Shown here piece after piece: positions 26,091-44,364 of a stretch of 64,000 nucleotides of DNA. The translations under genes were made by a program, and so were the position numbers. Position 1 is the stretch's first letter, and each line of letters opens with the position of its first letter. The notes under the pieces were generated by a model, which was given only the letters and a program-made list of their open reading frames with translations, ran no database searches and was not told where the DNA came from. The stretch lies in NCBI GenBank assembly GCA_000165345.1, contig CM000434.1:1024001-1088000 (forward strand). Direction: 5' to 3'.

Positions 26091-26991
26091 AGTTTATTAA
26101 AAAACATTATTTTTTGAGAAAGCCAGAATGAATTCTAGAGCTTTTCAATTGAAGAAAGAAAGCGAAATGTATACAATTTGAATATTTTGACAAATTTTAA
26201 TCTTCATGTAAGTTTTAATTAATTTACCGGTACTTTTGCCTTGTCATTAATATGTGCACCCGAGTGTGCACACAGCATTGCCTCGATGTGATTTCAAAAG
26301 AATTATTAAAAATAATAATTGAGTGAAAATCTGGCAAATTTAAGACATGTCTACACAAATATTTTGAGTAATCTTTTCTTTTCCCGTCAAATGCTTAATT
26401 TCATATTCATCAACCATTTTCTTTCACCCAAATATGTAATCCTATGTGGGCAATATTAAATTAATTTAATAGAATTTTTCGTATTCAACAAGTAATGAAC
26501 TTTTTAAGACTAAATTAAGTTTTGATATTATTTCTATCGCAAATACCTAAATAAATATTTACTAGCTTACTCTACAATTCGACTTTAGTTGTTTTATCTC
26601 CTATCTTTTTCTCCACCCCAATTTTTTTTTTTATTTAATTGTTGACATTTACCGGTACATGCAATTTTGCTTGCATGAAATTCATGTGGATAATGCATGA
26701 ATTTAGAAAAAAAATATTCAATACCGGTGAAGGATTTAATGTGGATGCATGCAATAATGTTATTATGGGACTAAGTAGAGGAAATTTTCGTCAAATAATG
26801 AATGAGAAAAAAAATAAGTAGAAAGTGGAAAAGGAAAATAGGAATAATTATTGTTAATTTTGTATATTAGTGTAGAAAATAATATACATATATGTAAAAG
26901 AGAACAAAAAGAGTTAGGTTTTTTTTAAGAGTTTAACCATAGTTGTTGATTTTTATTAAAAAATTTGAATAAGATTATTAAAGAAGAGCCA

Positions 26992-28454: not shown

Positions 28455-28742
28455 ATGGAGGGAGAAAAGGAGAACAGTTCTATTCAGGCTATTGAAAAAC
28501 TTCAACTACTGCAAAGAGTTGTAGAATCACAGAAGATGATGGCAAAGTTGACTTCTAGGTGTTATAAGAAGTGTGTTGTGGGAGGATCAGGAGGTGGAGG
28601 AAAGAGTCTAACGAGGAAAGAGAAACTTTGTTTGTGGAACTGTGCCCAGAACTTTCTTGAGAGTTCGGAATTCGTTGCTTCAAGAATCACGATGGTGGAA
28701 GATACGTCTTTATCCAATCAAAAGGACTCGGAGAAGTCTTAA
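28455..28742 (+). CDS. Small Tim family protein (Tim9/Tim10-like, twin CX3C zinc finger)
   Basis: The track ORF begins on a TTG (28434); the first ATG is 28455 (MEGEKEN). Twin CX3C motif: CYKKC-(19 aa)-CLWNC, in the helix-loop-helix context typical of small Tims (...AKLTSRCYKKCV...KEKLCLWNCAQNFLESSEF). A Gly-rich insert (GGSGGGG) sits between the two half-motifs. Confidence 0.55.
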   Translation: MEGEKENSSIQAIEKLQLLQRVVESQKMMAKLTSRCYKKCVVGGSGGGGKSLTRKEKLCLWNCAQNFLESSEFVASRITMVEDTSLSNQKDSEKS

Positions 28743-29013: not shown

Positions 29014-32000
29014 TCAATGGTATGTTGCGGCTTCTCTCCACATGACAAAGTTCTCAATAATTCCATCTCTTTCACTCTTTGATTTTGCTTTTAATGAAAG
29101 TTCCATACCCTGTGGCTGGTCTTCTGATGGTGGCCCAACTACTACAAAGCAAGTAGGTCCAGTAATCTTCCTTGGTTCTACCATATTTGCAGCCTTCAAA
29201 ACCGTACTTTGGAGGCCTTTCCAAATGTTTCTAATCTTTCCAATTGGCAAGGAGTTATTGAAATCATTATCTTTAGTACCAACCTTCCATTCAAGTTTGT
29301 ACAAGTCTTGAGAAGCTCTCCATGTAAACTCATCTCTTGACTTCCCATCCAAAACTATCTTAAGTTTTCCACCGTTTCTCAAGAAGTCTTTGGTCTCCTT
29401 TGGCAAATCTTGTACACCATTTGGATAAGGTTCAACATTCCAATGAGTAATATCGAAGTCAAATTCACCACAAAGAACTGATAAAGCTGAGTAATCACCA
29501 GACATTATGGCTGTGCTTACACCTGTGACGAAGTCCTTTCTTGCTCCTTTTGCTTTAGAAGCTGAATTTTCTAAAGCATTTCTAAAGTCATCATTTACTA
29601 TTCCTGGAACTAAATCTAACGCGTATTTGCTCAAGAATGAAATATACTGACATATCAAAGCAGTAGAATCCATATCAGAAGCAAAAATTGTCATTACTTT
29701 GCTCATTACATTCACAGTTTCACTGTTTGCTATTGATTCAATACATAAATTCTCAGAAAGTAAATAAGCCATAATACCAAATCCAGCTCTCATTAAACGA
29801 AGATGTCTTCCATTCTCCTCCTTGTGAATTGCATGATTCACAGATTTTACAATTGCATTGCAATCATTCACATCCAACTGGCAAACTTGGTATCCTTTTG
29901 GTGCATCAGCTGCACTATATTCTGAGTCTGGGCTTCCTGAATAAAGAAGTCCAAGCAATACACGAATAGCTTCTACAAGAACAAGAGTCTGATCTGAGCT
30001 ATTCTTGATAGATTCACAAATTGACTGTGCTCCACCAATACTAAGGAAGTCTAAAGCATTGCTTGGATCTGACATACAACGACGAAGGAGTCTGAAAGCT
30101 GCAATCTTAAGATCTGAACTACCTTCTTTACCTTCAACAATGCTAATAATAACTCTATATATACCAGCAGAAACCAAGTAATCCATTTGTTCAGGAACTG
30201 AAGTCTGATATGATAAAAGATGAATAGCAGAGGTCATTAATCCTGTATCATAATCGTTCTTTAGTAATTGTTTAATTACTATATCAGTTCCATTTGCCTT
30301 AAAGAAGTCTGCTGCATTACTTGGACTTCTACAAAGCATTGAAAGAACATCGAAACATAATCTCTTGATGTCTGGATCATCTCCTGGAGCGTTTAATACT
30401 AAATTCAACAATGGTTGAATTAAAATATTAAATGAAGCTAATTGACTTGCCTCATTCTCAGATGCAATATTACATAAAGTACGTAATTCCATCAAAATTG
30501 TTTCTTTTGGTAAGTTGGAAGAAACTTCTAATAAATGATTGAAAACTTTCTCTATATGACTTGAAGCGAAAACTGCGATATTTGGAGTGTATAAACACAT
30601 ATTTGCTACAGCTTTTAATACTGACATAAAAGCCCTTGTTGCGATTCTTTCTTGCTCTCCATTATAAGAGTTTAAGAATTGAACAATTAATGCAGGGATA
30701 CCAGAAGATCCAAGTTCTTTCTTTGTTTCGTCTTTCTTGTATCCAAGATTTACAATCAAAACACCCAAAGAATTTATTACATCCCAATAGCCAATGTAAG
30801 AATTAAACAAAGACTTTATAATTTCTGGACCTTTTGATTTGGTAAAGATTTGTTTATTATTGGTATGTTGAATGGTTAAATTTGCTAAAGCTAAACAACC
30901 ATTTGTTACTGTTGGAGAAATCTGTTCTGGTGGCATCTTGATTGAAGCTCTAAGTAACTCACATATTGAATCAATACCACCATTCTCTCCAATTTCTGAT
31001 TTAATATTTGGAATAATTGCAAGAGAACCCAACAAATACAAAACATCTGGAAGAACTCCAATATCATTCTTTGCTTTAATGATTGCAATCAATCTCTTTA
31101 ATACATTTGCATTCAATAAAGCGCTAACAAAGTCATCAGACACAATTCTTCTTAAAGCTCTAAATACATGTCTCAAGATATTTAAAGAGTACTTTTTATT
31201 ATCATAGGCTTCCCAAATTGAAAGCAATATATCAAGCATTGAGGTTCCTACGAAGAGTTGTCTGCTAACAGCAATTTTCTCAACCAGTTGGATGCGTACA
31301 ATCAATAATTCTTCTTTTTTTGCTTCATCCATTGGACTTGCGTGGATTTCCTGAACAAAATCACAACATATCTGAGCAGTACCTGGTGCTGTTGCACATT
31401 GAATCGCTGCTTTATCAGACTTTGCAATATCAATGAGACCACTTGCAATAGCTTGTTTTGTATCACAATCTTGATTTTGAATATTTAATAACATAGTTTT
31501 TGGCCATTGGTTATCAACCAAATATTCAACATCTTCAGGAATGCTTGATATTACTTGAGCAGCCATACATCCAAATTTAAAATCAATGGAAGTTGGTCCA
31601 TCCATTTTTTGAGTAACAAGCTGAGACATTGTTTGAACAAGATACTCTAACTTCTCAGCTACAGCTGTTGACTCTGTAATACTGAGAGAAAGTCCTTCAG
31701 CTTCTCTACGTTTGAGCATATCATACACAACCTTGAGTGAAAGTTCTGCTGGTATATCAGAAGCCATGGTATTTGTAATCTCTTCAACCTTTGCCTTCAA
31801 AGCTTGTCCAAATTCATCACCATAATAATCTCCAAGCTGTGAAATTGCATTAAGTATATCATCAGTACATTGATTTTGGGACATCTCTACACCCATTCCT
31901 TGAATCTGAGCGAGATTAAGCATTAAATCAGCAACTGCATCAGCTGCATATGGATCAGCTGTTACTACTGGTAATGCAGAAGTTGCAAGAATTGGGAGTA

Positions 32001-35000
32001 CTGAGTTATAAGTTAAAGAAGCTGCATTTTCATTTACTTTAAGCATTGGAGTTAAAGCTTTTGTTGCCTCACGAACAACATCTGGAGATGTTGGGTAAGT
32101 TTGAATCATTGATAAGATTTCAGCTGGAGAATCTATACCTTGGATCTTACCATTTTCAGATGATTCTGAAGCTGAAGCTATCAATTTTGAAATTGCTACT
32201 GCTACTCCTTCACGTCTTGCTTCAGCTAATGATTGATCATCATCATAAGCTCTGCATCTCCTAATTTGACGTGATACTAATGACTTATCTTCAAATTGAC
32301 ATCCAGCAGAAATCAGTTTTGTCATAAGATCACATAAAGCTGCATCTCTAATATCAGCCTTGTTTGATCCTTCAGTAAGTCCCTGAAGTTCATTAAGTCC
32401 ATTTACTGAACATATATAAGAAGAATCTGCTCCAGCATTAATTACAAGATTACCAATGAGTTTCATTCCTTCTACAGCAACAGTATCATTCTTACGATGT
32501 TTCTTAATTGTTGAAATAATTGTTGAAATATCTCCCATTGGAGTTTGAGCAACATATTGAGCTCCTGTTGGATCTTCTGCTAAAATTCTCATAAATTCAT
32601 AAGTCTCAGCTGCTACATCTGAATCACTCTGATATTTTTCCAAGATCTCTCCAATATGAGGTAAGAAAGTACCATTATTACATCTTTCAAGAACATAATT
32701 TCTTGTATATGGATTATTTAAACAACCACTAAGAACTCTAATTCCAGAACATACATATCTCTTTGAAGATACTGCTTTACCAGAAGTATCTTCTAAATTA
32801 TCTTCGATATGTTGCATCATTCCTGATGTTGCTACTGCCCAAGATCCAAAGGAATCTTCAGAATTATCAAAAGCTCTATCAGTAATTCTTTGTGTTAATA
32901 CTGCAATTGAAGATAATAATCTAATATCTGTTGGATATTCTGCTGCTGCTGCTACTAAAGATTGTAAACAAGCTTCAGTATATTGAAGTGCATCTTCTGG
33001 ATTCTCTGGTTGAGATGCTACAAATACTGCAAGTTGACGACATAATTGATCAAGATCTCTTGCACAATCTGGTCCATTTTCTTGTTGAGTATTAATTATA
33101 CTCACCATAAGACTCTTAATAGTTTCATCAGCTCCACATTTTGATAAAACTTCACCACATTTTGATATTACTGCAGGATTATCATTATGTACCATCATTA
33201 CATTCTGCATAAGTTCTATTATTGCACATTCTCTTAATATGGTATTATCCATTGAATTGGTTAAATTATTAAGAAGAATTAATAAATCTTCAACAACTTC
33301 TTCATTATTCTTTTGAGCATCTAAAGCTCTTAGAACTACTTCTACACATCTATGAAGATCTTGTTCAAAGTATGCTCTAATATCAACATAATTACCAATT
33401 GAATTCAAAACTCTACAAGCTGCTCTAATTTGAGAAGATTCTGATGGATATTTATCAACAACTCCAAATGCTGCAACAATACTACCAACATCAGTAGTAA
33501 TTTGAATTATAGAAGTATCATGACTACTGATTAAGTCATTAATAGCATTCAAACATTTAATTCTAACCTCAGCTTTTGAACTCTCATTAACAGTATTAAC
33601 AAGTCTGGTTAGTAAATTATTAAAGGATGGTTCAGCTAATAATATTTCAACTCTTTTTGGAGAAGTTGCCATTGCTGCTATAGCAGAACAAGCTGATCCT
33701 AAAATCTTCTCATTATCTTGGAAGTTATCTAAACTAGTACAAATTAATTGTACTGCTCCATTTTCAAAACAAGTCTCAGCTGCTTTAACATCAAATTTGA
33801 CAATATTAGCAACAGCTACTAAATTGTCAACTAATCCTGTTTCAACTTCTTCATTTAATGAACAATTTGCAAGATTTCTGTACATATTTAAAAGTGAAAC
33901 AGTAACATTGTTCTTAACTATTGCAACTTTTCCTGGTCTAGAAGCAGTTAATAAAGAGCAAAGTGTAGAACAAGCTGATAATATATTTTGAGCTACAACT
34001 CCATGTTCTGAAGAATTAATCTTTGAACTTGCTAATTCTTCAATTCTTGGAATTAAAGCTGGAATACCTTCAGAAATTGTAAATTTGCATCCTTCTGGAG
34101 TAACAGCAAGTTCATTACATGTAATAATGGCTTGAAGAATTGTTTTTAAATCACCAGAATCAAGTGAAATCTTAATTTCACCAACTTTTTCAGAAATAAT
34201 CTTTTTAACTTCTCCAACTGGTACTAAAGCTAAAGCTAAAGGAGCAATAATTAATCTGAGTTCTGAACTTCTATTATGAAGTCTCATAGCACCTTGTACA
34301 ATTTCAACAGCACCAGATTTACGTAAGATTTCAATAGATTCTGGAGAATATTTAACTAATAAAGATAAAAGAGTAAAACCTGCAATTTGACATTCCAAGA
34401 GTACTTTTGTACGTTGAAGGAATGCAAGACAAACTTTAATAACACCATTATCAATTTCTGCTTTGGCTCCACTTTCTGTCTCAGCAATAATACAGAATGA
34501 TTTAATACATTGAAGTTGAACAACTCTATTTTCAATATATTTTCTTATTGTTGAAACAAGTGAATTAACAACATTAACAACAGTTTCATCAGATCCAATA
34601 CGTTGTACTTCAATTAAACTTCTTACAGCTTTCATATTTTCAACAACAGGATTATCATTAGTATTCTTTTCAGCAAAAGTCTTCATTTGTGGAAGTGTTG
34701 AAATATCTAAAAGTTGAACAATTGTAGGTCCAAGATCTCCTTGTGCTTCAGAAATTTTAAGAGTACTAGTAGTTTGAAAAGCTGCTGAGATAAGTTTTTC
34801 TTGTCCTTCAAATGGACTTTCTGAGATCCATTTACGTACATATCCAAGAATATCATCACATATATTTAATGAAGAGAATAAAGGAGCAAGAGATGATATT
34901 TTACAAAGACCAGCAATAGCAGCTAAATCTTTATATGCAGCATTTGGATCAGAAAGAGCAACTTTTGGTAAATTGGTTGTATGTAAAGTAACATCTTTAT

Positions 35001-36621
35001 CAGTGGCAATAATTTCTAATATACTTAATCCAGCTTCTTTAATATAATCATTAGAATTATGAACCAACATTGCTTCTAAAACAGCACTAACCATTTCTCC
35101 TTGGCTTAAATAAATTGAACTATCTGATACGGTAGAAAGTTTTTCAACTAATTGAATAGCAGTTGTAACAAGTACTTCATCTTTAACATTTTCAATAATA
35201 GATTTCTCGATACCTGAGATACCACCAAATTCTGAAATGGGTTGTAATGTTTTAATAAATGGTGCTAAATGATTTAAAGCTGCTAAAGAAGCTGATTGAT
35301 ATGCTGCATCATCACAATAATAATTTAAACATGTGGCAAGAATTTCAACACTTTGTACACTAATAAGAGCTTCAGCAAGAGGAGCATGTTGAGATGCGAT
35401 GGATAAAAGATCAGCAGCACATTTAGTAAAATCTTTATCATTTTCAACATTAGAATAGAATAATTGAAGGAGATCTCCCATAATAGAAGCAGCAGCAACA
35501 GCAGTAGTTTCTCTTACAAATAATGGATATAATGATTGACATACAGCTGTAGAGATTTCAAGGTTATTAATACAAGTTGTAAAAGCTGAACAGATTGCAT
35601 CGATACCTCCAATTTCAATTAAATTATCAACATTTGAAGGATTTGAAGCAACTCTAGCAAGAACACGTAATGATCCAATAATAATACGACTAGATTTGGA
35701 AGTATGTTCTTCATTTCCACTTTGAGAATATTCACTAACACCTTGGTTAAGTGCTTCAACAACCATAGAAATACCTCCTTGTCTAACAATTTCATCAGCA
35801 AATGATGATACATAAGCCATAGCTGAAAGCATTGTCAAAGAATCATCTTTTTGAGTAATATCAGAATTTGGGGATTTAATAACAACTAAACATTCCATAA
35901 GTTTTTGAGGATTCATTAATAATTCCAAACAGGCACCTCCTTTTTCTGTGATACCTCTTCTACTACGATATAAATCAATAATATGTACAACAGCTTTAAG
36001 TGCATCTTCTGGTACATCACCATAACTAGCACATAATCTAACAATTTCAAGACAATTTTCTATTAATGCAGCAGATTCATTATCAGATTTGGTCCAGTTA
36101 TGAGCAAAATTAAGAGTTTTTGATCCAATTCCTGCTTGAACTAATGCAGCAATTCCACTTTCTTGGTGAGCAATAGCACAAATTGCACCAGTAACTTTAA
36201 CAAGTTCAGAACTTCCAAGATATTTACTTTCATAGAATTTACCAAGGCAACTTGCAGCAGTTGTAGAATCAAGAGCACCAATACAAAATAGATTTTCAAT
36301 TGTGGTACAAATGGAAGCTAAGATGGCGGAATCATTTGATTCAACAAGACCATTAACAGCCATTGCGACAGTATTGGATCCTCCTCTTGAAATAAACATA
36401 TTAGTTAACTCAGCATCTTGTGATTCTTTCATAAACTCGGAAATACCGAACATAATTCTAACACAATTTGTTGAAATATCTTCATCATCAGGGAATTGTT
36501 GTAATGCTTCACTCATAATTTCTAAAATACCTCTTTGCATTGCATCCAAGGAGTTTTCCTTGTATAACAATGTTGGAGGTACACATAAATCACTAAGGGA
36601 TCTGAGTGAAAACAGCAACAT
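29014..36621 (-). CDS. Very large (2535 aa) armadillo/HEAT-repeat protein of unknown function
   Basis: Single uninterrupted ORF of 7.6 kb with a true ATG at 36621; an in-frame stop lies 20 codons upstream. Repetitive helical repeats of about 40 aa rich in L/I/A/V, with recurring N/G-x-[ILV]-x-x-[LI] patterns throughout (ARM/HEAT-like). The last roughly 130 aa (GGKLKIVLDGKSRDEFTWRASQDLYKLEWKV...) are distinct from the repeats. Confidence 0.8.
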   Translation of the reverse strand: MLLFSLRSLSDLCVPPTLLYKENSLDAMQRGILEIMSEALQQFPDDEDISTNCVRIMFGISEFMKESQDAELTNMFISRGGSNTVAMAVNGLVESNDSAILASICTTIENLFCIGALDSTTAASCLGKFYESKYLGSSELVKVTGAICAIAHQESGIAALVQAGIGSKTLNFAHNWTKSDNESAALIENCLEIVRLCASYGDVPEDALKAVVHIIDLYRSRRGITEKGGACLELLMNPQKLMECLVVIKSPNSDITQKDDSLTMLSAMAYVSSFADEIVRQGGISMVVEALNQGVSEYSQSGNEEHTSKSSRIIIGSLRVLARVASNPSNVDNLIEIGGIDAICSAFTTCINNLEISTAVCQSLYPLFVRETTAVAAASIMGDLLQLFYSNVENDKDFTKCAADLLSIASQHAPLAEALISVQSVEILATCLNYYCDDAAYQSASLAALNHLAPFIKTLQPISEFGGISGIEKSIIENVKDEVLVTTAIQLVEKLSTVSDSSIYLSQGEMVSAVLEAMLVHNSNDYIKEAGLSILEIIATDKDVTLHTTNLPKVALSDPNAAYKDLAAIAGLCKISSLAPLFSSLNICDDILGYVRKWISESPFEGQEKLISAAFQTTSTLKISEAQGDLGPTIVQLLDISTLPQMKTFAEKNTNDNPVVENMKAVRSLIEVQRIGSDETVVNVVNSLVSTIRKYIENRVVQLQCIKSFCIIAETESGAKAEIDNGVIKVCLAFLQRTKVLLECQIAGFTLLSLLVKYSPESIEILRKSGAVEIVQGAMRLHNRSSELRLIIAPLALALVPVGEVKKIISEKVGEIKISLDSGDLKTILQAIITCNELAVTPEGCKFTISEGIPALIPRIEELASSKINSSEHGVVAQNILSACSTLCSLLTASRPGKVAIVKNNVTVSLLNMYRNLANCSLNEEVETGLVDNLVAVANIVKFDVKAAETCFENGAVQLICTSLDNFQDNEKILGSACSAIAAMATSPKRVEILLAEPSFNNLLTRLVNTVNESSKAEVRIKCLNAINDLISSHDTSIIQITTDVGSIVAAFGVVDKYPSESSQIRAACRVLNSIGNYVDIRAYFEQDLHRCVEVVLRALDAQKNNEEVVEDLLILLNNLTNSMDNTILRECAIIELMQNVMMVHNDNPAVISKCGEVLSKCGADETIKSLMVSIINTQQENGPDCARDLDQLCRQLAVFVASQPENPEDALQYTEACLQSLVAAAAEYPTDIRLLSSIAVLTQRITDRAFDNSEDSFGSWAVATSGMMQHIEDNLEDTSGKAVSSKRYVCSGIRVLSGCLNNPYTRNYVLERCNNGTFLPHIGEILEKYQSDSDVAAETYEFMRILAEDPTGAQYVAQTPMGDISTIISTIKKHRKNDTVAVEGMKLIGNLVINAGADSSYICSVNGLNELQGLTEGSNKADIRDAALCDLMTKLISAGCQFEDKSLVSRQIRRCRAYDDDQSLAEARREGVAVAISKLIASASESSENGKIQGIDSPAEILSMIQTYPTSPDVVREATKALTPMLKVNENAASLTYNSVLPILATSALPVVTADPYAADAVADLMLNLAQIQGMGVEMSQNQCTDDILNAISQLGDYYGDEFGQALKAKVEEITNTMASDIPAELSLKVVYDMLKRREAEGLSLSITESTAVAEKLEYLVQTMSQLVTQKMDGPTSIDFKFGCMAAQVISSIPEDVEYLVDNQWPKTMLLNIQNQDCDTKQAIASGLIDIAKSDKAAIQCATAPGTAQICCDFVQEIHASPMDEAKKEELLIVRIQLVEKIAVSRQLFVGTSMLDILLSIWEAYDNKKYSLNILRHVFRALRRIVSDDFVSALLNANVLKRLIAIIKAKNDIGVLPDVLYLLGSLAIIPNIKSEIGENGGIDSICELLRASIKMPPEQISPTVTNGCLALANLTIQHTNNKQIFTKSKGPEIIKSLFNSYIGYWDVINSLGVLIVNLGYKKDETKKELGSSGIPALIVQFLNSYNGEQERIATRAFMSVLKAVANMCLYTPNIAVFASSHIEKVFNHLLEVSSNLPKETILMELRTLCNIASENEASQLASFNILIQPLLNLVLNAPGDDPDIKRLCFDVLSMLCRSPSNAADFFKANGTDIVIKQLLKNDYDTGLMTSAIHLLSYQTSVPEQMDYLVSAGIYRVIISIVEGKEGSSDLKIAAFRLLRRCMSDPSNALDFLSIGGAQSICESIKNSSDQTLVLVEAIRVLLGLLYSGSPDSEYSAADAPKGYQVCQLDVNDCNAIVKSVNHAIHKEENGRHLRLMRAGFGIMAYLLSENLCIESIANSETVNVMSKVMTIFASDMDSTALICQYISFLSKYALDLVPGIVNDDFRNALENSASKAKGARKDFVTGVSTAIMSGDYSALSVLCGEFDFDITHWNVEPYPNGVQDLPKETKDFLRNGGKLKIVLDGKSRDEFTWRASQDLYKLEWKVGTKDNDFNNSLPIGKIRNIWKGLQSTVLKAANMVEPRKITGPTCFVVVGPPSEDQPQGMELSLKAKSKSERDGIIENFVMWREAATYH

Positions 36622-37744
36622 TCTCTTGAATTTCTTGTGTTGATTTGCTGACGAAATAGCCGTTGCTACACCATTATCAGGTGCTCTTTGAGCTAAAGAT
36701 AAAAAAAGTTAAAAAGAAAATTGAGAATGATTAAAAGTAAAATTTTGATATATCAATAGGAGAATTAATAGAGAAATGACAATTGAACATTTATTTTTCA
36801 ATTATCAATATTTTTAATTCTTAAAGCAACATTTTCTTTGAATTGAGTTGATCGGTACCAGATAATTAATAGGCCGGTATGCAATAAAAAATTTTGTGCA
36901 TCATCACCATATTAGAGCGTGTAATAAATAATTTTTTCTTTTTTTTTCTCCCTCTATTTAGAAAAATTTTTTATGTATAAAAAATAATTACCAAATAGAT
37001 AGAATATTGATTGTATTTAAAATTAATAATTTAGATTAAATCAAAGTATTGATATTTCTCAATGTTTGAATTGATTCTGAATATACATTATAACAGTTAC
37101 ATAAATATTAAGATGATTGTATAGCACCGAGTAAATGATTTGAATTTTTCAACATAAGAATTTGTTTAATTGCTTTAAGAATAAAATATCTCTCTTTCTC
37201 TATTTTTTTTCTGATAACCTATTTTCATAATATATCAGAATTTTATAATAATACTTACTTTTATTAATAGCCATGGTTAAATATTATAGCCATATATGAA
37301 TTTCCTAAATGAATTCAATCAAACTTAACTTTAATAGCGATCAAAATTTTGAGAAATATATAGAAATCAATAATATCTCTATATAAATAAATATTTACTT
37401 TGAGTAATATACGATCAGGCAGAATAAGTTGAAAATTTAATGATTTTCTGGTCTTCTGCTTGCTATTTTTGCTAGTTGGCAAATGTCTTTTGAAATTATT
37501 AGATTGAGATATTGCAAGTGATATAATGTAAAAATATAAATATATACAATAATGTTATTTAGGATCTCGGCTTTTTCCTGAATAATCAGTATTAATATAT
37601 ATTTAAAAATTATGTAAATCTTCTCTTTTTGTTAGAGAGTTATTGGATTAATTGTTATTTTTTTTACTTGCTTGTACTGGGGTTGTTATTAGGATAATTT
37701 TCCTTGCCGTATAAAAATAGATTCTTAACCTCGTTAAAAAAGAT

Positions 37745-37840
37745 TCAATTATGCACGCACGCGGTAGCAAAGAAAAATATTCAGAATATAAAAACATGCA
37801 TGCCAGTATGCATGAAACAGGCGGGAAAATGGCAATGCAT
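37745..37840. promoter_or_regulatory. Promoter-like motif cluster 1 in the 2.5-kb gene-free interval
   Basis: atgcacgcacgcgg...aaacaTGCATGCcagtaTGCATGaaacaGGCGGGAAAAtggcaaTGCATGCAatttg. This is a dense GCATGCA plus GGCGGGAAA combination with no annotated gene start within 1 kb. Confidence 0.45.
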
Positions 37841-38462
37841 GCAATTTGTTAATTTACCAGATGGCGCATTTTGGGCAAAATTTGGATACTAAGTATAGGA
37901 ATATGGTCAGTAAACCATTTAAATAATAAAGTATGACGGCTTGTAAATTGTTCAAGGTAGATAATTGTTTACAAGCTATTTTCGACAGTTTGTAGGAGAA
38001 TCGATTTTCTTTTCAAATAATCTGGTATTTCCAAAGTTGGGAGTTAAGACAGTTGAAAATAAATTCTTTTTTTTTTTTTTTGGAAAAGAATTTTATGATA
38101 ATTAATTCAATATTTTACCCTTTTTATATTCTTAAATCTTATTCCTTTGTTTTCTGTTGAACCAAGAAGGGTTAAATTACAATGTTATTTTTTTTTCTCC
38201 CCCCTCCTCTCCTTTACTATAGACTAAATCGACTTTTTATATTTAAGCTGATTTTTAGTGCTAATTAGAAGAAAAAAATATAAATAACGAGCGAAGAAAA
38301 GTGAGGAAATACGTATGTTGTATGAATTTCCAATAAAATTCTTTATATTAATAAAGTAATAATTCAATTAAAAAGAGAAGAAAAAATAATGTTTTCCTTA
38401 GAATTAACTTTCCACATTAAAATATTTATATAAAAAAACATTACGTGTAAATTGATTTATCC

Positions 38463-38556
38463 TATACCGGTATGCAAGTATTTTATGTGGACGCATGTAA
38501 GGACATGCACAAGAAGAAGACCGGTTGCATGTGGATGCACCAGTAAGTCGAATATA
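38463..38556. promoter_or_regulatory. Promoter-like motif cluster 2 in the 2.5-kb gene-free interval
   Basis: taCCGGTATGCAagtattttatgtggacGCATGtaaggaCATGCAcaagaagaagaCCGGTTGCATGtggaTGCAccag. Confidence 0.45.
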
Positions 38557-39118
38557 ACTAGCAAGTACACTAGAAAAAGAAAAGGACTGGAATAAGATGG
38601 GCGAATTAAAAATATAAAAGGTAATTTATCTTCCCTAACTAAAATATGGTCAGCAGAAGTATGGTGAGAATCCACGAGTAACAACTAAACAAGCAAGAGT
38701 TAAATTGGATTGGTATAAAGAAATGACAAATTCCAGGGCATGATACATATAGTATCTGATGATTTGTAAGGAAAAAAATTTTTTCTCCTGTTCCTATTTG
38801 AATTTGTGACCAGATCTAATGTTACTCTTAAAATAACCCAGACGACTTATTTAGCTATTCTGCGCTGAGTAATGAAAAATGTCAATAACGGTAAATTATG
38901 GTAATTAGTATAATAATAAATCTTTATCATTCAGCTCCCACTACTTTCAAATCAGCCCCGAAAGTTACTTAGAATAAAGACCTGGATAAGCCAGCCTCGG
39001 ACTCGAGACTGAACTCAGTTAGCTTGGCTTAATTCAGCTCGATTCAATTCAGCCATTTCTCGTTTCAGTTTAATTTTTGTTCTCGTTTTTATTAAATGCA
39101 AATTACGGCAGAGTTAAA

Positions 39119-41296
39119 TTAGTTAATATTGTACTTGGAATATAACTGGAGTAAATAGTCTTGGTTTTCTCCATCAATAGCGCAAACATAGTCACTAATA
39201 ACAGAGCGTGGATGTTTAAAGTGATCGTTCACTCTAATTCTGGCAGTTGGAGGTACAACACCTAAGCACTTTGACATTGTGTTAACAAGGGAGTTGAAAT
39301 GGTTTACATCAGAAAACTTGATCTTTGTTGTGGAGATGTTGTGGAATGGATCTGAGAATAAGACCTTGTTAATGGATTTTTGTAAGGTATTTTCATTTTC
39401 AGAAATGATCTCAACATGATGTTTAGCAACTGGAACAGGGCAAGTGTTTAATGAGAAAATCTTTGGGTTACCAAATCCGAAAATATGCTTCAAGTCTCTG
39501 AATAAAATTAAATATAATTGAGGATTGTACTTTGCGAGTTGTAAGACGAAGCTGTAAGAAGAGTTCCTAATCAAGTTGTTAATTGAATTTTCGCTGTCGA
39601 ATACTCCACCAATAGTTTTCCATCTCTTCTCATTCTTTGGTATTTGGATTCTCATAAATGAATTATCACCATCTCTTCTTAATAAGGAGTCTGGGAAAAT
39701 ATTGAATGCTACCATGTTAGAGTGATGGAAACTCTCTTCTGATTCACCTTGAGTTTGGTGAGTGAAACAATTCAAAGTGAGTAAACCATAGTAAATTAAA
39801 TGGAGCTCTTCTCCTTGCTTGATTGGAGAAGGTGACTCTTCAATTTCATAATGTTCACTCTCTGGTGCGCTTTCATTAACATTTGCTTCCTCTGTAGAAA
39901 TAGAAAGCTCTGAGGATTTCAATAAAGACTGAATTCCAGACTTCTTTTCTCCAAACTGTAAGAGGGAAATTGGAACATCACCAGTAGCAAATCTGACCTG
40001 GCGTTCCTTTGCCTTGATCCATCTTTCCAAATCCTCGAGCTTATTATCCTTTCTTGAGATCTCCTCAAGTGATTCCAATGGGGCTGGTAAAACTACATGA
40101 GTCTCAGCATGACCTGAATTCCAGAATTTTTCGGCCCATGCTTCAATAGCTTCTTTTTGTGAAGCAACCAAATTATCTGTCTCTTCCTTAGAAAGGAGAA
40201 GATTCAAGAATTCATAAGAATAATCCTGAGATAAAGTCTCAGACCCAGAATAAATTTCATCAACCTTCCATGTATTACCCTCGAAGTACAACTTAGCTCT
40301 AAATTGGAATAATGGAGAGATCTGTTGTTCAAGAGTGGTTGGCATATTTTCTGGTAAGTCAAAGAAGTTAACTTCATACTTTTTCTTCATAAATCTCTCA
40401 AAGGCTTTAACTCTTGCTGAGGCAGTGTTTGAGAAGTCTGCCTTAGAAGAAGCTGTGAGTTCAATTGCAACAGGAGAAGAAACGCTTCTGGCAACAACTG
40501 GATACATCTGAACGAATTTCTCTTTAAGAAGCTGCTCAGTCTTTTCCTTTCTGATGTTTTCAAATATTAAATGCCAAGCTGTCTCAGTACCTGACATTGA
40601 GGAAGCAACTGCTTCACACTTTCCTTTACCAGAGTTAGTCTTAATTGACTCGCTTAAGCCTGAATAGTGACTGGAGTCTTTAGCTGGATATTGGTTGAAG
40701 ATATTTCCTCTGTATGATAATTCAACAAACTCTGTCTTGGAATAAGAGTATTTCTTCAAATTTGAAATTGGTCTCTGGCAAGCATTCTCACAATATCTTT
40801 GACGATATTCCTCATCATTGAAAGTGCTTTCTCCTTCTTTGTTCTTAAATATTAAAACAGCTGGAGTATTATTGTCAATGGCCATTGCAGACTTTGTAAT
40901 GCGGTTAACATTCAAAAAGATCTCATCAAATGATGAAACTAAATCAACCATTGAATGATCTCCAATTGGTTTATCTACTGAAGAAATAGATTTCAAGTCG
41001 AGACCTGAGTTCCATAGCGCAATTGTACCTGTTCTGTATTCAGAAACTGCACCATTTAATGATCTCAATTTTGGCTGGCTATCAGAAAAGTCTAAGATAC
41101 CATCTTTTCCTTCCTGATTTAAAGAAATTGGCTTAATATCAGCAAAATATTCCACTGAATCCAAGCTCATTTTTCCATTCTCAAAAATATATTGAGAAAC
41201 AGAACAGTAACATTGGCATATGAAGCCATTATCTTGTGATAATACCCTCCTTGACAAGAGGGAGAATAAACTAAAAAGTAGTACAAGTCTATACAT
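39119..41296 (-). CDS. Hypothetical secreted protein (N-terminal signal peptide)
   Basis: 725-aa ORF with a true ATG. N-terminus MYRLVLLFSLFSLLSRRVLSQ, hydrophobic with a predicted cleavage after SQ. No further TM segments and several Cys. No recognised catalytic motif. Confidence 0.6.
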   Translation of the reverse strand: MYRLVLLFSLFSLLSRRVLSQDNGFICQCYCSVSQYIFENGKMSLDSVEYFADIKPISLNQEGKDGILDFSDSQPKLRSLNGAVSEYRTGTIALWNSGLDLKSISSVDKPIGDHSMVDLVSSFDEIFLNVNRITKSAMAIDNNTPAVLIFKNKEGESTFNDEEYRQRYCENACQRPISNLKKYSYSKTEFVELSYRGNIFNQYPAKDSSHYSGLSESIKTNSGKGKCEAVASSMSGTETAWHLIFENIRKEKTEQLLKEKFVQMYPVVARSVSSPVAIELTASSKADFSNTASARVKAFERFMKKKYEVNFFDLPENMPTTLEQQISPLFQFRAKLYFEGNTWKVDEIYSGSETLSQDYSYEFLNLLLSKEETDNLVASQKEAIEAWAEKFWNSGHAETHVVLPAPLESLEEISRKDNKLEDLERWIKAKERQVRFATGDVPISLLQFGEKKSGIQSLLKSSELSISTEEANVNESAPESEHYEIEESPSPIKQGEELHLIYYGLLTLNCFTHQTQGESEESFHHSNMVAFNIFPDSLLRRDGDNSFMRIQIPKNEKRWKTIGGVFDSENSINNLIRNSSYSFVLQLAKYNPQLYLILFRDLKHIFGFGNPKIFSLNTCPVPVAKHHVEIISENENTLQKSINKVLFSDPFHNISTTKIKFSDVNHFNSLVNTMSKCLGVVPPTARIRVNDHFKHPRSVISDYVCAIDGENQDYLLQLYSKYNIN

Positions 41297-42456
41297 CTCG
41301 ATCCTCTTCTATTCTCAATTCTATTGCATTAAAAATTCTTGAAGACCTCAGTAATATCCTTCAACTTTTGTTTAAATTTTGTCTTCAGTTGTTAAATTCT
41401 TGTTAAATCTGTTTGGTAATTATGAAGACATAATGGTAACTAAGTTTCCCGCCTTTGTCAGAAATATTTATTATTTAAGTTATACCAGAGAGGATTTTTT
41501 TTATATTATTAAATAATTGTTTAGGCGGCAATTACCCAGAAAACTTCCCTCCAATAAAAATAATAATATGGGGTAATAAAATTTAATAGTAATATTTTAT
41601 TTCTTGGTGTAAATATTACTTAATTTGGAGAAAAAACTCTTTCATTCAAGTTTAAGAGGGAAAGTTCAAAACTTGATGAAAATGATTAAACTATGGAAAC
41701 ATCAAGTAAAATTGTTTGGAATTGGAGAAAGAGGAGTTTTTTTTTTTATCCAATTTTTAGTATCTATGAAAATAAACATCATTATTATCTTCCATGAGGT
41801 TAGAACATCCTCTTTGAATTTGGAAGGTCCAAATCTTAGATTTTTCTTACCTTTTCATTTCTCTTGTATCTTACCTACTTCCATCACTTGTACAGAAATC
41901 TGTACGCCTTTTTCACTTATCACTACTTTGGATTTAATTCCCTAGTTTCTATTCATCCATTCGGATCTAAGCTTAAATCGTAGTTAAATTAGGTACAGAC
42001 TACTGTTTGTATTAGGTTTCAATGGTTTCTCCTATTTTCGTTCCAATGTACTTCATCTAACTAAACTGGGTGAATATTATTAAGCTAAAGTTGACTTCTT
42101 TACTACAAAATAACCAAATATGAGGAAGAAAATATACTCATAAGCTTTTTCTTGTTACAAAAAAAGCTCTAGAATCTAACTATTAATGCAAACCACTTTG
42201 CCCATTCTATTATTCACAATGATATTTTTGCTAATCTTCTAATTTTTACCCCACTTTTATTTATCATTTGAATAATAAATAGTTTAGGCGGGAAACCCCG
42301 TAGCTAGTTTGGACATGAAACAGAAAATTAAAATAAAAGGAGGTTGTTTGATTTATATGGGATTGCAAGAAGTGCAGTAACTGGGTGTAAGAGTTGGATG
42401 TTTGGATAACAAGTGTGTAAGTATTAATTGAGTTAAATCCGAAAGTTAGAACAAAA

Positions 42457-43947
42457 ATGATGGAAATAGCCAAGTATAGAGGGACTAGAGATTCCATTAA
42501 GATCGAGAGCCCAAAAGAGAAATTGGAAATTAAAAGTGGAGAATATATAGGGAGTATAGATGGAGAGTTTGATGAATTAAATCATGAGATTTATGAATTC
42601 ATTCACCAATGTTTGAACACTGACGATTCAGATCTGTTATTTCCAACTTTTGAGGAACAGTTACAAAGTACTTGTATTAGCAATGGCAGTGAAACAGTTA
42701 AAACTGGTGGTACATATATGGATGTGAATCCTCTTCAAGGAGATAGAGAGTCCTTTAGGTTTGGGTTTGAGAACGAAAATAATTCTCAGTATATGAATAT
42801 TAAACAAGAGTGTATGAATACAGCAAGTAATAATGTTGGGGGATTTTCTATGTCACTTGAAAACACTTTTGATTTCAATGGAATATTACTAAAGGCTTCA
42901 TTTCTTGGAAAAACTGACATTATTAAGTCATGTTTAGATAATGGAGCTAACGTCTTACATACCGATAAGGTTGGACGTACTGCATTACACTATGCATCAG
43001 CTTGTGGATGGCTTCCAACAATGAAGCTGCTTCTCAAGTACAATTGCGATATAAATCGTAGAGATCACAAAAATTGGACAGCTCTCCATATTGGAGTTTC
43101 AAAGAAATTCCCAGAAGTTGTGGAATTATTACTTTCTTCTGGAGCAGATTTAAGTTTGGGACTTCCACATACATGTGCACCATGTAGGGGGGGACCAATT
43201 TCTAGTAAAGCTATTCATTTTGCTGCAATTAGAGGTAATCGTATGATCACGGAGATACTTTTAAAGTATGGGGCTGATATTAATGATGTAGATGAAGATA
43301 ATAAGACTCCTTTGCATTATGCAAGCTTCAGATCAAATTTAGATTACGCCAAATGGGTAATTGAGAAAGGAGCTGACGTAAATGCAAAGGATAAATACGG
43401 GAGGACTCCTCTCCATATAGCATCCTTGTCTGGTAATCTTGAAATTACGAAGATACTCATAGAAAATGGATCTGAAGTCCGAGCTAGGGATATCTGGGAT
43501 ATGTCTCCTTTAAGCCTTGCATTAACTAGAGAACATCCTGAAATGGTTTCTTATTTGGAGTCAATTTCCGGTGAAAAGTCATCTGAAATCTCTGTTATTA
43601 GAGGATTTGAATTAGATACAATGGAATCTATAGTATTAAATACCATAGTTACTGGATTACAAGAACCAAAAAAAGAATTCATTGCTAGAGTGATTAAGAC
43701 TATTGGATCACAAAGAAGCCTGCAACTTTACGAAAACGCCATGAAGGTTGAGAATTCTGGCGGGCTCTTGACAGCGGACATGTCAAGGAGAAAAACTATT
43801 GGAGGAGTCTTCTGCTACCTCCTTAAACAACTTGTTGCTGAAGATCAAATTACTATTCAGGAATGGAATTATATTCGACAAGAAGAGAAGGAAAGAATTA
43901 ACGCTAAGAACATTCTAAAACGTAATAATAGACGATGTCAGGTCTAG
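42457..43947 (+). CDS. Ankyrin-repeat protein
   Basis: At least six tandem 33-aa ANK repeats, for example GRTALHYASACGWLPTMKLLLKYNCDIN, NWTALHIGVSKKFPEVVELLLSSGADL, NKTPLHYASFRSNLDYAKWVIEKGADVN, GRTPLHIASLSGNLEITKILIENGSEV. True ATG in the aaaaATGatg context. Confidence 0.85.
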   Translation: MMEIAKYRGTRDSIKIESPKEKLEIKSGEYIGSIDGEFDELNHEIYEFIHQCLNTDDSDLLFPTFEEQLQSTCISNGSETVKTGGTYMDVNPLQGDRESFRFGFENENNSQYMNIKQECMNTASNNVGGFSMSLENTFDFNGILLKASFLGKTDIIKSCLDNGANVLHTDKVGRTALHYASACGWLPTMKLLLKYNCDINRRDHKNWTALHIGVSKKFPEVVELLLSSGADLSLGLPHTCAPCRGGPISSKAIHFAAIRGNRMITEILLKYGADINDVDEDNKTPLHYASFRSNLDYAKWVIEKGADVNAKDKYGRTPLHIASLSGNLEITKILIENGSEVRARDIWDMSPLSLALTREHPEMVSYLESISGEKSSEISVIRGFELDTMESIVLNTIVTGLQEPKKEFIARVIKTIGSQRSLQLYENAMKVENSGGLLTADMSRRKTIGGVFCYLLKQLVAEDQITIQEWNYIRQEEKERINAKNILKRNNRRCQV

Positions 43948-44289: not shown

Positions 44290-44362
44290 GCACTCGTGGC
44301 GCAATGGATAGCGCGTAGCCCTCCTAAGGCTGAGGTTGAGGGTTCGAGTCCCTCCGAGTGCG
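44290..44362 (+). tRNA. tRNA-Arg (anticodon CCU)
   Basis: Hand-folded cloverleaf. Acceptor GCACTCG/CGAGTGC. D-arm GCGC-AATGGATA-GCGC. Anticodon arm TAGCC-CTCCTAA-GGCTG, with U33 and A37 flanking CCT. Variable loop AGGTT. T-arm GAGGG-TTCGAGT-CCCTC. Discriminator G; no encoded CCA. A T-rich run (tttctttatttttt) follows immediately, as a pol III terminator would. Confidence 0.85.
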
Positions 44363-44364
44363 CT

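What the first reader, a model, noticed from the sequence alone, without database searches (positions are those of the whole stretch)
36622..39118. 2.5-kb gene-free interval in a compact genome, with two separated promoter-like motif clusters
Neighbouring intergenic regions are 0.1-1 kb. This interval has no ORF longer than 75 codons on either strand. It contains two dense GCATGCA/GGCGGGAAA/CCGGT clusters about 700 bp apart (37745..37840 and 38463..38556). These are the same motif grammar seen directly upstream of protein-coding starts elsewhere in the window. A GC-richer patch with reiterated TCAGC/TTCAG units lies at 38975..39050. This suggests one or more unannotated non-coding transcripts, for example a lncRNA, snRNA or snoRNA host, or a small spliced gene missed by ORF finding.
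Basis: partly seen in the sequence, partly recalled or inferred. Interest (0 to 1): 0.55.

Follow-up and report, generated by a model that had tools for sequence, protein, structure and literature searches.

The report
Hidden 5' end of ARM-repeat gene
The apparently empty 2.5-kb stretch of Cryptosporidium parvum chromosome 6 is mostly the overlooked front end of the neighbouring large ARM-repeat gene cgd6_4460 (promoter, probable long untranslated leader, a 16-base first coding exon and a 566-base intron), so it is largely ordinary and already in some public annotations.

Summary
36622..39118 is the largest ORF-to-ORF gap in the window, has no ORF over 75 codons, and holds two motif clusters that keep their positions in seven related Cryptosporidium species.

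The interval is not gene-free. The left 653 bases belong to the minus-strand ARM-repeat gene cgd6_4460:
- a 16-nt coding mini-exon (37274..37259);
- a GTAAGT...TAG intron of 566 nt (37258..36693);
- 71 more coding bases of exon 2.

This reproduces the public 2564-aa protein (MAINKTQRAPDNG...) and is conserved in eight species.

Upstream lies a 503-nt stretch with no ATG on the gene's strand only. Four other species conserve this, so I infer a long 5' leader. It begins at a 27-mer invariant or nearly so in nine species, just downstream of cluster 1. Cluster 1 is therefore most likely this gene's promoter.

The GC-richer patch is probably the 3'UTR of cgd6_4470.

I found no structured RNA (Rfam, fold z-scores, covariation) and no hidden coding frame.

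Cluster 2 (about 38400..38556) is a conserved regulatory module whose target is unresolved: a distal start site for cgd6_4460, an upstream enhancer-like module, or the promoter of a poorly conserved lncRNA.

Verdict: mostly known gene structure, low interest.

The parts
36622..36692 (-). First 71 nt of exon 2 of cgd6_4460. It codes for (T)QRAPDNGVATAISSANQHKKFKR, upstream of the internal Met that ORF finding takes as the start.
   Evidence: This is the only place in the interval with frame-specific conservation: tblastx frame -2 gives 92-100% identity with C. bovis and C. ryanae. It matches residues 6-29 of the public 2564-aa protein P0022.
36693..37258 (-). Intron 1 of cgd6_4460, 566 nt, with a GTAAGT donor and a pyrimidine tract plus TAG acceptor, in phase 1.
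   Evidence: Sequence read. Donor, acceptor and phase are conserved in 8 species, with intron length varying from 248 to 566 nt. ATG content is at expectation on both strands. Conservation is low.
37259..37274 (-). Coding part of exon 1: ATG GCT ATT AAT AAA A (MAINK plus 1 nt). The start codon sits in a strong context, aaccATGg.
   Evidence: One search shows ATGGCTATTAAYAAAA|GTAAGT in the intestinal clade, and MAINR or MAVTR variants in C. felis, C. bovis and C. ryanae. Public gene models of C. meleagridis, C. bovis and C. ryanae start exactly here: their offsets of 628, 341 and 370 nt equal 16 + intron + 71.
37264..37293 (-). Short upstream ORF (MAIIFNHGY*), out of frame with the main start codon and overlapping it. 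Its AUG is the first one after the AUG-free leader and has a weak context.
   Evidence: Sequence. It has the same length and register in C. parvum, C. meleagridis, chipmunk genotype I, C. ubiquitum and SRR31860986. It is shorter in C. felis and absent in C. bovis and C. ryanae.
37294..37796 (-). ATG-free stretch on the gene's strand, inferred to be the 5' leader. The true start of transcription is inferred to lie near 37680..37740.
   Evidence: ATG-to-ATG spacing is 504 nt in C. parvum and 492-505 nt in the four other close intestinal-clade species. It is 355 nt in C. felis and about 181-184 nt in C. bovis and C. ryanae. Sense ATG counts in the five close species are 0-1 against 7-10 expected, reached or undercut in 0 of 500 shuffles in each, while the antisense strand is at expectation.
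37709..37735 (-). 27-mer AACGAGGTTAAGAATCTATTTTTATAC, invariant or nearly so across the genus. It contains the palindrome TTAACgagGTTAA and, on the other strand, TATAAAAA. Inferred to be a core-promoter or transcript-start element.
   Evidence: It is identical in five species and carries 1-2 changes (substitutions, or a 1-nt deletion in C. bovis) in SRR31860986, C. felis, C. bovis and C. ryanae. It occurs once in the window, with 0 expected. In every species it sits right after the last upstream ATG-bearing motif.
37745..37847 (.). Cluster 1: GCATGCA/CATGCA (AP2-type) sites, one E2F-type GGCGGGAAA, and CGCGTGCGTGCA. Inferred to be the proximal promoter of cgd6_4460.
   Evidence: Searches give the motif hits. 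The most conserved non-coding block in the interval (0.78-0.92 identity to four close species) runs from here into the flank around the 27-mer. The motifs lie at -110..-60 from the 27-mer in seven species.
37880..38399 (.). Poorly conserved spacer between the two clusters. It includes a T16 run (38066..38081) and a hairpin found only in C. parvum and, imperfectly, in C. meleagridis (about 37939..37976).
   Evidence: Alignment. Hairpin fold z = -2.0. Sense-strand ATGs are depleted in C. parvum, C. meleagridis and chipmunk genotype I only (2-4 against 8-10 expected).
38400..38556 (.). Cluster 2: TCCACAT x3, ACCGGT x2, CATGCA/TGCATG x2 and ACACGTAAT. A conserved distal regulatory module whose target is unresolved.
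   Evidence: Alignment. The motifs lie at -800..-520 from the 27-mer in seven intestinal-clade species, and are not evident in C. bovis or clearly in C. ryanae. TCCACAT resembles motif 5 (TTGTCCACATK), and CCTATACCGG resembles motif 4, both reported upstream of C. parvum lncRNAs (PMC7840661 supplement).
38900..39118 (-). Region just downstream of the cgd6_4470 stop codon, probably its 3'UTR. It has AATAAA at 39088..39093 and the GC-richer patch with four GCTGA[AT]T heptamers.
   Evidence: It is moderately conserved in close species (0.67-0.72). It is not a tandem repeat and has no folding signal.

Best explanation
The window is Cryptosporidium parvum chromosome 6. The interval lies between the stop codon of cgd6_4470 (725 aa, minus strand) and the internal methionine of the large ARM-repeat gene cgd6_4460 (minus strand). 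About 1.2 kb of it is the front end of cgd6_4460.

Reading in the direction of the gene:
1. Cluster 1 (AP2-type GCATGCA sites plus one E2F site) acts as the proximal promoter.
2. Transcription starts at or just after a 27-mer invariant or nearly so across the genus.
3. A leader of about 0.45-0.5 kb, kept free of AUG, is scanned by ribosomes.
4. They meet a weak-context 9-codon uORF that overlaps the strong-context main AUG.
5. A 16-nt coding mini-exon is spliced across a 566-nt intron to exon 2.

The remaining 1.2 kb or so holds the short 3'UTR of cgd6_4470, a poorly conserved spacer, and cluster 2. Cluster 2 is a conserved distal regulatory module. I think it most likely serves cgd6_4460 as a distal or stage-specific start site or an upstream element.

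Shown: exon, intron and coding extension; conservation of both clusters and the 27-mer; strand-specific ATG depletion. Inferred: position of the transcription start, promoter function, leaky-scanning control, and the role of cluster 2.
For: - **Identity of the locus.** Exact or near-exact protein matches to C. parvum cgd6_4470 and the ARM-repeat protein. Papers name cgd6_4460 as that ARM protein.
- **Splice model.** My splice prediction from the sequence gives MAINKTQRAPDNG..., identical to the public 2564-aa proteins CAD98262.1 and QOY41334.1.
- **Conservation of the gene structure.** Donor, acceptor, phase and mini-exon are conserved in 8 species. Public models of C. meleagridis, C. bovis and C. 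ryanae begin at the same exon.
- **Coding signal.** Frame-specific conservation appears only in the exon 2 extension.
- **Leader.** ATG-to-ATG spacing is 504 nt on the gene strand (492-505 nt in four relatives). Sense ATGs number 0-1 against 7-10 expected, while the antisense strand and the intron are at expectation.
- **Conservation profile.** It peaks at 37879..37529 and again at exon 1.
- **27-mer.** Conserved as far as C. bovis and C. ryanae.
- **Motifs.** Enriched in the window and positionally conserved.
Against: - No transcript data could be reached, so the start site, the extent of the leader and the use of cluster 1 as a promoter are inferred from sequence alone.
- ATAC-seq peaks in sporozoites were reported to lack AP2 motifs (PMC11761812), so cluster 1 may act mainly outside sporozoites.
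- TATAAAAA within the 27-mer faces the opposite strand.
- Cluster 2 lies about 0.7 kb upstream of the inferred start site, far for this compact genome, where the mean intergenic distance is 504 bp (PMC7840661). Assigning it to cgd6_4460 is the weakest step.
- ATG depletion between the clusters holds only in the three closest species.
Confidence: 0.8

Rival explanations
1. Cluster 2 is the promoter of an independent, unannotated long non-coding RNA. It would run either on the minus strand through the spacer 38400->37900, or on the plus strand towards and antisense to the 3' end of cgd6_4470.
For: - Cluster 2 is conserved in seven species.
- It carries TCCACAT and CCTATACCGG-type motifs like those reported upstream of C. 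parvum lncRNAs (PMC7840661 supplement).
- C. parvum lncRNAs often start beyond the 3' end of a sense gene, and bidirectional promoters are common (PMC7840661).
- The newest annotation lists 766 lncRNAs (PMC12179316).
- The flanking DNA is poorly conserved, as is typical for lncRNA bodies.
- The Logan contig L011 runs from 57 nt upstream of the cgd6_4470 ATG to 1011 nt past its stop codon. That would fit a transcript assembly, if the run is RNA-seq.
Against: - No sequence from this locus was found in the held part of the lncRNA catalogue. The files were truncated when stored, so this is weak.
- The library type of L011 is unknown, and it may be a low-coverage genomic contig.
- There is no structure or conservation signal in the putative RNA body.
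- Sense-strand ATG depletion in the spacer in three species fits a scanned leader better than a non-coding RNA.
Confidence: 0.3
2. The highly conserved block 37530..37790 is a small structured RNA gene (snRNA, snoRNA, RNase MRP RNA, telomerase RNA or similar) sitting next to its own promoter.
For: - Conservation equals that of coding sequence (0.86-0.92 in close species).
- The 27-mer is conserved across the genus.
- C. parvum has dozens of intergenic small RNAs of unknown function (PMC9465071).
Against: - No Rfam family matches even at E <= 10.
- Fold z-scores for 37550..37850 run from about -1.2 to +0.9 on both strands.
- RNAalifold gives -10.3 kcal/mol over 236 columns, with a covariation term of +1.14 and only one compensatory pair.
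- The block is continuous with an AUG-free stretch that ends exactly at the gene's start codon.
Confidence: 0.04
3. The interval hides a separate small protein-coding gene, possibly spliced, or the decayed remains of a lost gene such as the NIPA magnesium transporter that follows the cgd6_4470 ortholog in C. serpentis.
For: - In C. serpentis a NIPA gene sits directly downstream of the ortholog.
- A plus-strand frame at 38654..38743 reads ...QKYGENPRVTTKQARVKLDWYKEMTNSRA*, next to a GT-like donor.
Against: - tblastn of the C. serpentis NIPA protein against the whole window finds nothing (best E = 6.2, elsewhere in the window).
- Outside exon 2, tblastx shows equal scores in all six frames.
- The candidate plus-strand exon 1 has an in-frame stop before the donor, and the donor GT is lost in C. 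ubiquitum.
Confidence: 0.03
4. cgd6_4470 and cgd6_4460 are co-transcribed as a polycistronic or read-through RNA, and the interval is an internal untranslated spacer rather than a promoter region.
For: - Both genes are on the same strand.
- Polycistronic transcripts of 2-4 genes are reported in C. parvum, and their internal spacers are enriched in E2F motifs (PMC11761812).
- The Logan contig L011 continues 1 kb past the cgd6_4470 stop codon.
Against: - The 1844 bp between the cgd6_4470 stop codon and the exon 1 ATG is 3.7 times the mean C. parvum intergenic distance (504 bp; PMC7840661). No spacer-length distribution for the reported polycistrons was obtained.
- ATGs are abundant on the sense strand between the stop codon and cluster 1 in most species.
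- AATAAA lies 26 nt after the stop codon.
- The locus is not named in the paper's main text, and its supplements are not held.
Confidence: 0.08

Closest known systems
Public gene models of the C. parvum ARM-repeat gene cgd6_4460 that include the mini-exon (CAD98262.1, QOY41334.1, WRK33054.1; 2564 aa), and the C. meleagridis, C. bovis and C. ryanae orthologs
   Same: Exactly the same exon 1, intron and exon 2 junction and the same N-terminus MAINKTQRAPDNG.
   Different: Other public models start at the internal Met and give 2535 aa: C. parvum WKS78562.1 and KAL5368326.1, C. hominis, C. tyzzeri, C. ubiquitum and chipmunk genotype I. The leader, uORF, 27-mer and the two motif modules described here were not visible in any record I could read.
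E2F/DP1 and ApiAP2 (GCATGCA) upstream motif modules of Cryptosporidium genes and lncRNAs (PMC7840661; PMC11761812)
   Same: Cluster 1 has the same motifs (TTTCCCGCC, TGCATGCA) found within about 100 bp upstream of transcripts. The same motifs are enriched upstream of other ORFs in this window.
   Different: Here the module lies about 450-550 bp upstream of the start codon. It is followed by an unusually long conserved leader. A second module without an E2F site lies 0.7 kb further upstream.
AUG-depleted 5' leaders with a start-overlapping uORF (leaky-scanning translational control in eukaryotes; general knowledge)
   Same: There is strand-specific absence of AUG over about 500 nt. It ends in a weak-context uORF AUG 19 nt before a strong-context main AUG.
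   Different: Translation control was not tested. The leader is long for this compact genome.
C. parvum intergenic lncRNAs (33 lincRNAs in PMC7840661; 766 lncRNA genes in the CpBGF annotation, PMC12179316)
   Same: Cluster 2 has motif types reported upstream of lncRNAs, and it flanks poorly conserved, non-coding DNA.
   Different: No transcript evidence was obtained. No match was found in the held part of the catalogue.

Membership tests
Spliceosomal GT-AG intron with a 5' coding mini-exon of cgd6_4460 | Consensus donor (GTAAGT) and an acceptor (pyrimidine tract plus YAG) | tested here: met
   AAAA|GTAAGT at 37258 and ttttttatctttAG| at 36693. Both are conserved in 8 species.
Spliceosomal GT-AG intron with a 5' coding mini-exon of cgd6_4460 | Splicing restores one open frame from an ATG into the downstream ORF | tested here: met
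   16 nt + 71 nt in phase 1 gives 29 extra residues. The total of 2564 aa is identical to P0022.
Spliceosomal GT-AG intron with a 5' coding mini-exon of cgd6_4460 | Coding-type conservation of the exons, but not of the intron | tested here: met
   Exon 2 extension: 92-100% in one frame with C. bovis and C. ryanae. Intron identity is 0.42-0.73 with close species and about 0.02-0.39 with distant ones.
Spliceosomal GT-AG intron with a 5' coding mini-exon of cgd6_4460 | Spliced reads or cDNA across the junction | not testable with these tools
   No RNA-seq data were accessible.
5' untranslated leader of an mRNA | Strand-specific depletion of AUG upstream of the start codon | tested here: met
   0-1 sense ATG against 7-10 expected in 5 species. 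The antisense strand and the intron are at expectation.
5' untranslated leader of an mRNA | Mapped transcription start site | not testable with these tools
   Needs 5' RACE, Iso-Seq or CAGE.
Cryptosporidium E2F/AP2 promoter module | Presence of E2F (TTSSCGCC) and AP2 (TGCATGCA) motifs, enriched over chance | tested here: met
   Met for cluster 1. Cluster 2 lacks the E2F motif and any exact GCATGCA.
Cryptosporidium E2F/AP2 promoter module | Conservation of the motifs at orthologous positions | tested here: met
   Both clusters are conserved in seven intestinal-clade species. Cluster 1 is also conserved in C. bovis and C. ryanae.
Cryptosporidium E2F/AP2 promoter module | Open chromatin or reporter activity | not testable with these tools
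   ATAC-seq exists (PMC11761812), but its peak tables are not held.
Known structured ncRNA families (snRNA, snoRNA, RNase P/MRP, SRP and others; Rfam 15) | Covariance-model match | tested here: not met
   Only tRNA-Arg at 44290 reaches a gathering score. The single hit at E <= 10 in the interval is a viral element at E = 4.3.
Known structured ncRNA families (snRNA, snoRNA, RNase P/MRP, SRP and others; Rfam 15) | Thermodynamic stability above shuffles, and compensatory changes | tested here: not met
   z from about -1.2 to +0.9 over the conserved block. Covariation term +1.14 and one compensatory pair.
C. parvum long non-coding RNA | A discrete transcript over 200 nt without coding potential | not testable with these tools
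   There is no coding potential, but no transcript data either. The catalogue look-ups were negative on truncated files.
Independent small protein-coding gene or pseudogene | Frame-specific conservation, or similarity to a known protein | tested here: not met
   tblastx scores are equal in all frames outside exon 2, and there is no NIPA similarity.

The most novel reading that the evidence does not exclude
Cluster 2 is a genus-conserved promoter lacking an E2F site. It would drive a so far unannotated stage-specific transcript, either a lncRNA or a distal alternative start giving cgd6_4460 a leader of about 1.2 kb. The near-invariant 27-mer would be a previously undescribed cis element (a DNA- or RNA-level binding site) controlling this abundant sporozoite/oocyst protein.
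Probability: 0.3. Interest if true: 0.35.

Novelty: already known. Interest (0 to 1): 0.2.

Why it matters
The practical value is for annotation. Many public Cryptosporidium records give a protein 29 residues too short and leave a false 2.5-kb 'empty' interval. These include C. hominis, C. tyzzeri, C. ubiquitum, chipmunk genotype I and two C. parvum assemblies. The conserved mini-exon shows how to correct them.

The locus is also a clean example of a long, AUG-free, uORF-terminated leader and an unusually long intron in a very compact genome. From PMC9465071 Table 1 (1370 introns covering 1.29% of about 9 Mb) I estimate a mean intron of roughly 85 nt.

The two conserved motif modules and the near-invariant 27-mer are ready-made targets for promoter dissection of an abundant oocyst/sporozoite protein. 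None of this changes current understanding of the organism.

Tried and rejected
- **Rfam.** The gathering-score scan of the whole window and the E <= 10 scan of the interval found nothing relevant.
- **tRNA scan.** Only tRNA-Arg, outside the interval.
- **Fold z-scores.** A sliding-window scan on both strands gave isolated weak signals at 37350..37499 (-), 37900..38049 (+) and 38450..38599 (-). The hairpin near 37939..37976 is not conserved beyond C. meleagridis.
- **Consensus folding.** RNAalifold on the conserved block gave no covariation support.
- **Plus-strand spliced mini-gene** (ATG 38597, donor 38621...KYGENPRV...). Rejected because there is an in-frame stop before the donor and the donor is lost in C. 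ubiquitum.
- **NIPA pseudogene relic.** Rejected.
- **Repeats.** Tandem and dispersed repeat searches found only low-complexity A/T matches.
- **27-mer in metagenome contigs.** No match.
- **Literature.** Look-ups by gene identifier and by sequence strings in the lncRNA paper's supplements were negative, but the files were truncated. Supplements of the sRNA and polycistron papers are not held. A search for CpBGF or CPATCC identifiers found nothing.
- **Base-composition skews by strand.** Not discriminating.
- **Logan contig L011 as transcript evidence.** The library type is unknown, so it is left as inconclusive.
Full report
**Where this is.**
The 725-aa ORF at 39119..41296 (-) and the 2535-aa ORF at 29014..36621 (-) match, exactly or almost exactly, C. 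parvum chromosome 6 proteins Cgd6_4470 and the 'ARM repeat-containing protein'. Three proteomics papers call the latter cgd6_4460, a 'large protein with ARM repeats' and ortholog of TGME49_312630. It scores highly in oocyst-wall preparations. The interval therefore runs from the stop codon of cgd6_4470 to the first in-frame Met of the long cgd6_4460 ORF. Both genes are on the minus strand.

**Checking the observation.**
- The 2497-bp gap is the largest between long ORFs in the window. The others are 89-1406 bp. The published mean intergenic distance in C. parvum is 504 bp (PMC7840661).
- No ORF inside the interval exceeds 75 aa.
- GCATGCA occurs 39 times in the window against 4.3 expected. GGCGGGAAA with up to 1 mismatch occurs 14 times against 3.9. 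Dense clusters mostly lie upstream of ORF starts.
- Cluster 1 has this grammar. Cluster 2 has neither an exact GCATGCA nor an E2F site. It carries TCCACAT, ACCGGT, degenerate CATGCA and CACGTAA.
- The GC-richer patch is not a tandem repeat and does not fold better than shuffles.

**The left part is gene, not gap.**
Reading the minus strand, I found these features:
- ATG at 37274 in the context aaccATGg;
- 16 coding bases, then GTAAGT at 37258;
- a pyrimidine tract plus TAG ending at 36693;
- 71 bases that are in frame (phase 1) with the long ORF.

The predicted N-terminus MAINKTQRAPDNGVATAISSANQHKKFKR-MLLFSL... is identical to the public 2564-aa proteins CAD98262.1, QOY41334.1 and WRK33054.1. 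The original Iowa II model (EAK90165.1, 'partial', 2558 aa) begins at exon 2.

I fetched orthologous loci from C. meleagridis, chipmunk genotype I, C. ubiquitum, an unnamed species (SRR31860986), C. canis, C. felis, C. bovis, C. ryanae and C. serpentis. In eight species the mini-exon, donor, acceptor and phase are conserved, while the intron varies from 248 to 566 nt. Public models of C. meleagridis, C. bovis and C. ryanae start exactly at this exon.

In tblastx, the only frame-specific conservation in the whole interval is the exon 2 extension, at 92-100% with C. bovis and C. ryanae.

The 566-nt intron is long for this genome. From Table 1 of PMC9465071 (1370 introns, 1.29% of about 9 Mb) I estimate a mean of roughly 85 nt. 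It shows no conserved or structured element.

**Leader and proximal promoter.**
A MAFFT alignment of nine species shows two conservation peaks in the non-coding part: 37879..37529 and the exon 1 region. Identity to the four close species is 0.78-0.92 between 37879 and 37679, about as high as the flanking coding sequence.

Within the first peak, the 27-mer AACGAGGTTAAGAATCTATTTTTATAC (37709..37735, minus strand) is identical in five species. It carries only 1-2 changes in SRR31860986, C. felis, C. bovis and C. ryanae. It is unique in the window.

From the last CATGCA of cluster 1 (ATG at 37797) to 37293 there is no ATG on the gene's strand:
- The spacing is 504 nt in C. parvum and 492-505 nt in four relatives. 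It is 355 nt in C. felis and about 181-184 nt in C. bovis and C. ryanae.
- Local shuffles predict 7-10 ATGs. None of 500 shuffles had as few as the observed 0-1.
- The antisense strand and the intron are at expectation.

Selection against upstream AUGs is the signature of a scanned 5' leader. I therefore infer that transcription starts at or just after the 27-mer and that cluster 1, 60-110 bp upstream of it in seven species, is the promoter.

The first AUG after the leader (37293, weak context) opens a 9-codon uORF that overlaps the main AUG out of frame. The uORF is conserved in the five close intestinal-clade species. This suggests leaky-scanning control, which is an inference.

The conserved block is not a structured RNA:
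- no Rfam match;
- fold z-scores from about -1.2 to +0.9;
- RNAalifold gives -10.3 kcal/mol over 236 columns, with a positive covariation term.

**The right part.**
Directly after the cgd6_4470 stop codon come AATAAA (39088..39093) and the GC-richer patch. The patch has four GCTGA[AT]T heptamers and is moderately conserved in close species. I read this as the gene's 3'UTR.

Cluster 2, which the alignment extends to about 38400..38556, is conserved motif by motif in seven intestinal-clade species. It lies 520-800 nt upstream of the 27-mer. It is not evident in C. bovis or clearly in C. ryanae.

Its TCCACAT and CCTATACCGG elements resemble motifs 5 and 4 reported upstream of C. parvum lncRNAs (PMC7840661 supplement).

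The spacer between the clusters is poorly conserved beyond C. meleagridis. It shows sense-strand ATG depletion only in C. parvum, C. meleagridis and chipmunk genotype I.

There is no hidden coding frame and no relic of the NIPA gene that occupies this position in C. serpentis.

So cluster 2 is a real, conserved regulatory module whose target I could not determine. It may be a distal or stage-specific start or an upstream element for cgd6_4460, or the promoter of an unstructured lncRNA.

A Logan contig (ERR14760746) spans window 41353..38108. It starts 57 nt before the cgd6_4470 ATG, which would indicate transcription through cluster 2 if the run is RNA-seq. The library type is unknown.

**Comparison with what is known, and verdict.**
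- The mini-exon and intron are already in several public annotations, so the core of the finding is known.
- What ORF-only reading and about half of the public models miss is the 29-residue N-terminal extension.
- The motif grammar is the known E2F/AP2 grammar of Cryptosporidium promoters (PMC7840661, PMC11761812).
- The long AUG-free leader, the start-overlapping uORF, the near-invariant 27-mer and the conserved distal module are details I did not find described. They are ordinary kinds of gene-regulatory anatomy.

Interest is low (0.2). The most novel reading still open is an unannotated transcript or distal start driven by cluster 2, plus a new cis element, at a probability of about 0.3.

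Noticed in passing
window 29014..37274 (-), and loci L001, L010, L012: Public annotations disagree on the N-terminus of the ARM-repeat protein. The 2535-aa version (internal Met) is used in C. hominis, C. tyzzeri, C. ubiquitum, chipmunk genotype I and two C. parvum assemblies. The 2564-aa version with the mini-exon is used in other C. parvum records and in C. meleagridis, and the same mini-exon model (2565 aa) in C. bovis and C. ryanae. The conserved exon suggests the shorter models are truncated.
   Followed up: yes
window 37264..37293 (-): A 9-codon uORF overlaps the main start codon out of frame. It has the same length and register in the five close intestinal-clade species. Its first 8 bases (ATGGCTAT) repeat those of the main ORF, as if from a short duplication.
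   Followed up: partly
L007 5113..6258 (-), C. serpentis: In this gastric-clade species a NIPA-type magnesium transporter gene follows the cgd6_4470 ortholog only 71 bp after its stop codon. The intestinal clade has the long interval and the ARM gene there instead. This is a synteny difference between clades. The contig ends before one can see what follows.
   Followed up: partly
window 28455..28742 (+): A 95-aa Tim10/DDP-type zinc-finger ORF sits in the 771-bp 'gap' between the long ORFs at 26965..28242 and 29014..36621. It is annotated in the matching public record (L012) and translates cleanly here.
   Followed up: partly
window 44290..44363 (+): tRNA-Arg (anticodon CCT). It is the only Rfam or ARAGORN hit in the 64-kb window.
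   Followed up: no
window 41445..41453 (-) and 42287..42295 (+): Exact E2F-type GGCGGGAAA sites lie about 150 bp upstream of the cgd6_4470 start codon and about 160 bp upstream of the ankyrin/PHAX-domain ORF (42457..43947). They probably mark those genes' promoters within the 1160-bp divergent gap.
   Followed up: no
window 38108..41353 (Logan contig L011, ERR14760746): A 3246-nt public contig from another C. parvum isolate (5 mismatches) begins 57 nt upstream of the cgd6_4470 ATG and ends 26 nt before the 16-base homopolymer run (T16 on the plus strand). It could be a transcript assembly or a fragmented genomic contig.
   Followed up: partly
window 37939..37976: A 9-bp hairpin (GCTTGTAAA...TTTACAAGC on the minus strand; z = -2.0). 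It is present in C. parvum and imperfectly in C. meleagridis, but not in more distant species.
   Followed up: yes
window 26965, 54097 and 61908 (ORF starts): Three long ORFs in the mechanical list begin with TTG. For 26965..28242 the public model starts at the ATG at 26992. The other two may have upstream exons, or may run off the window.
   Followed up: no
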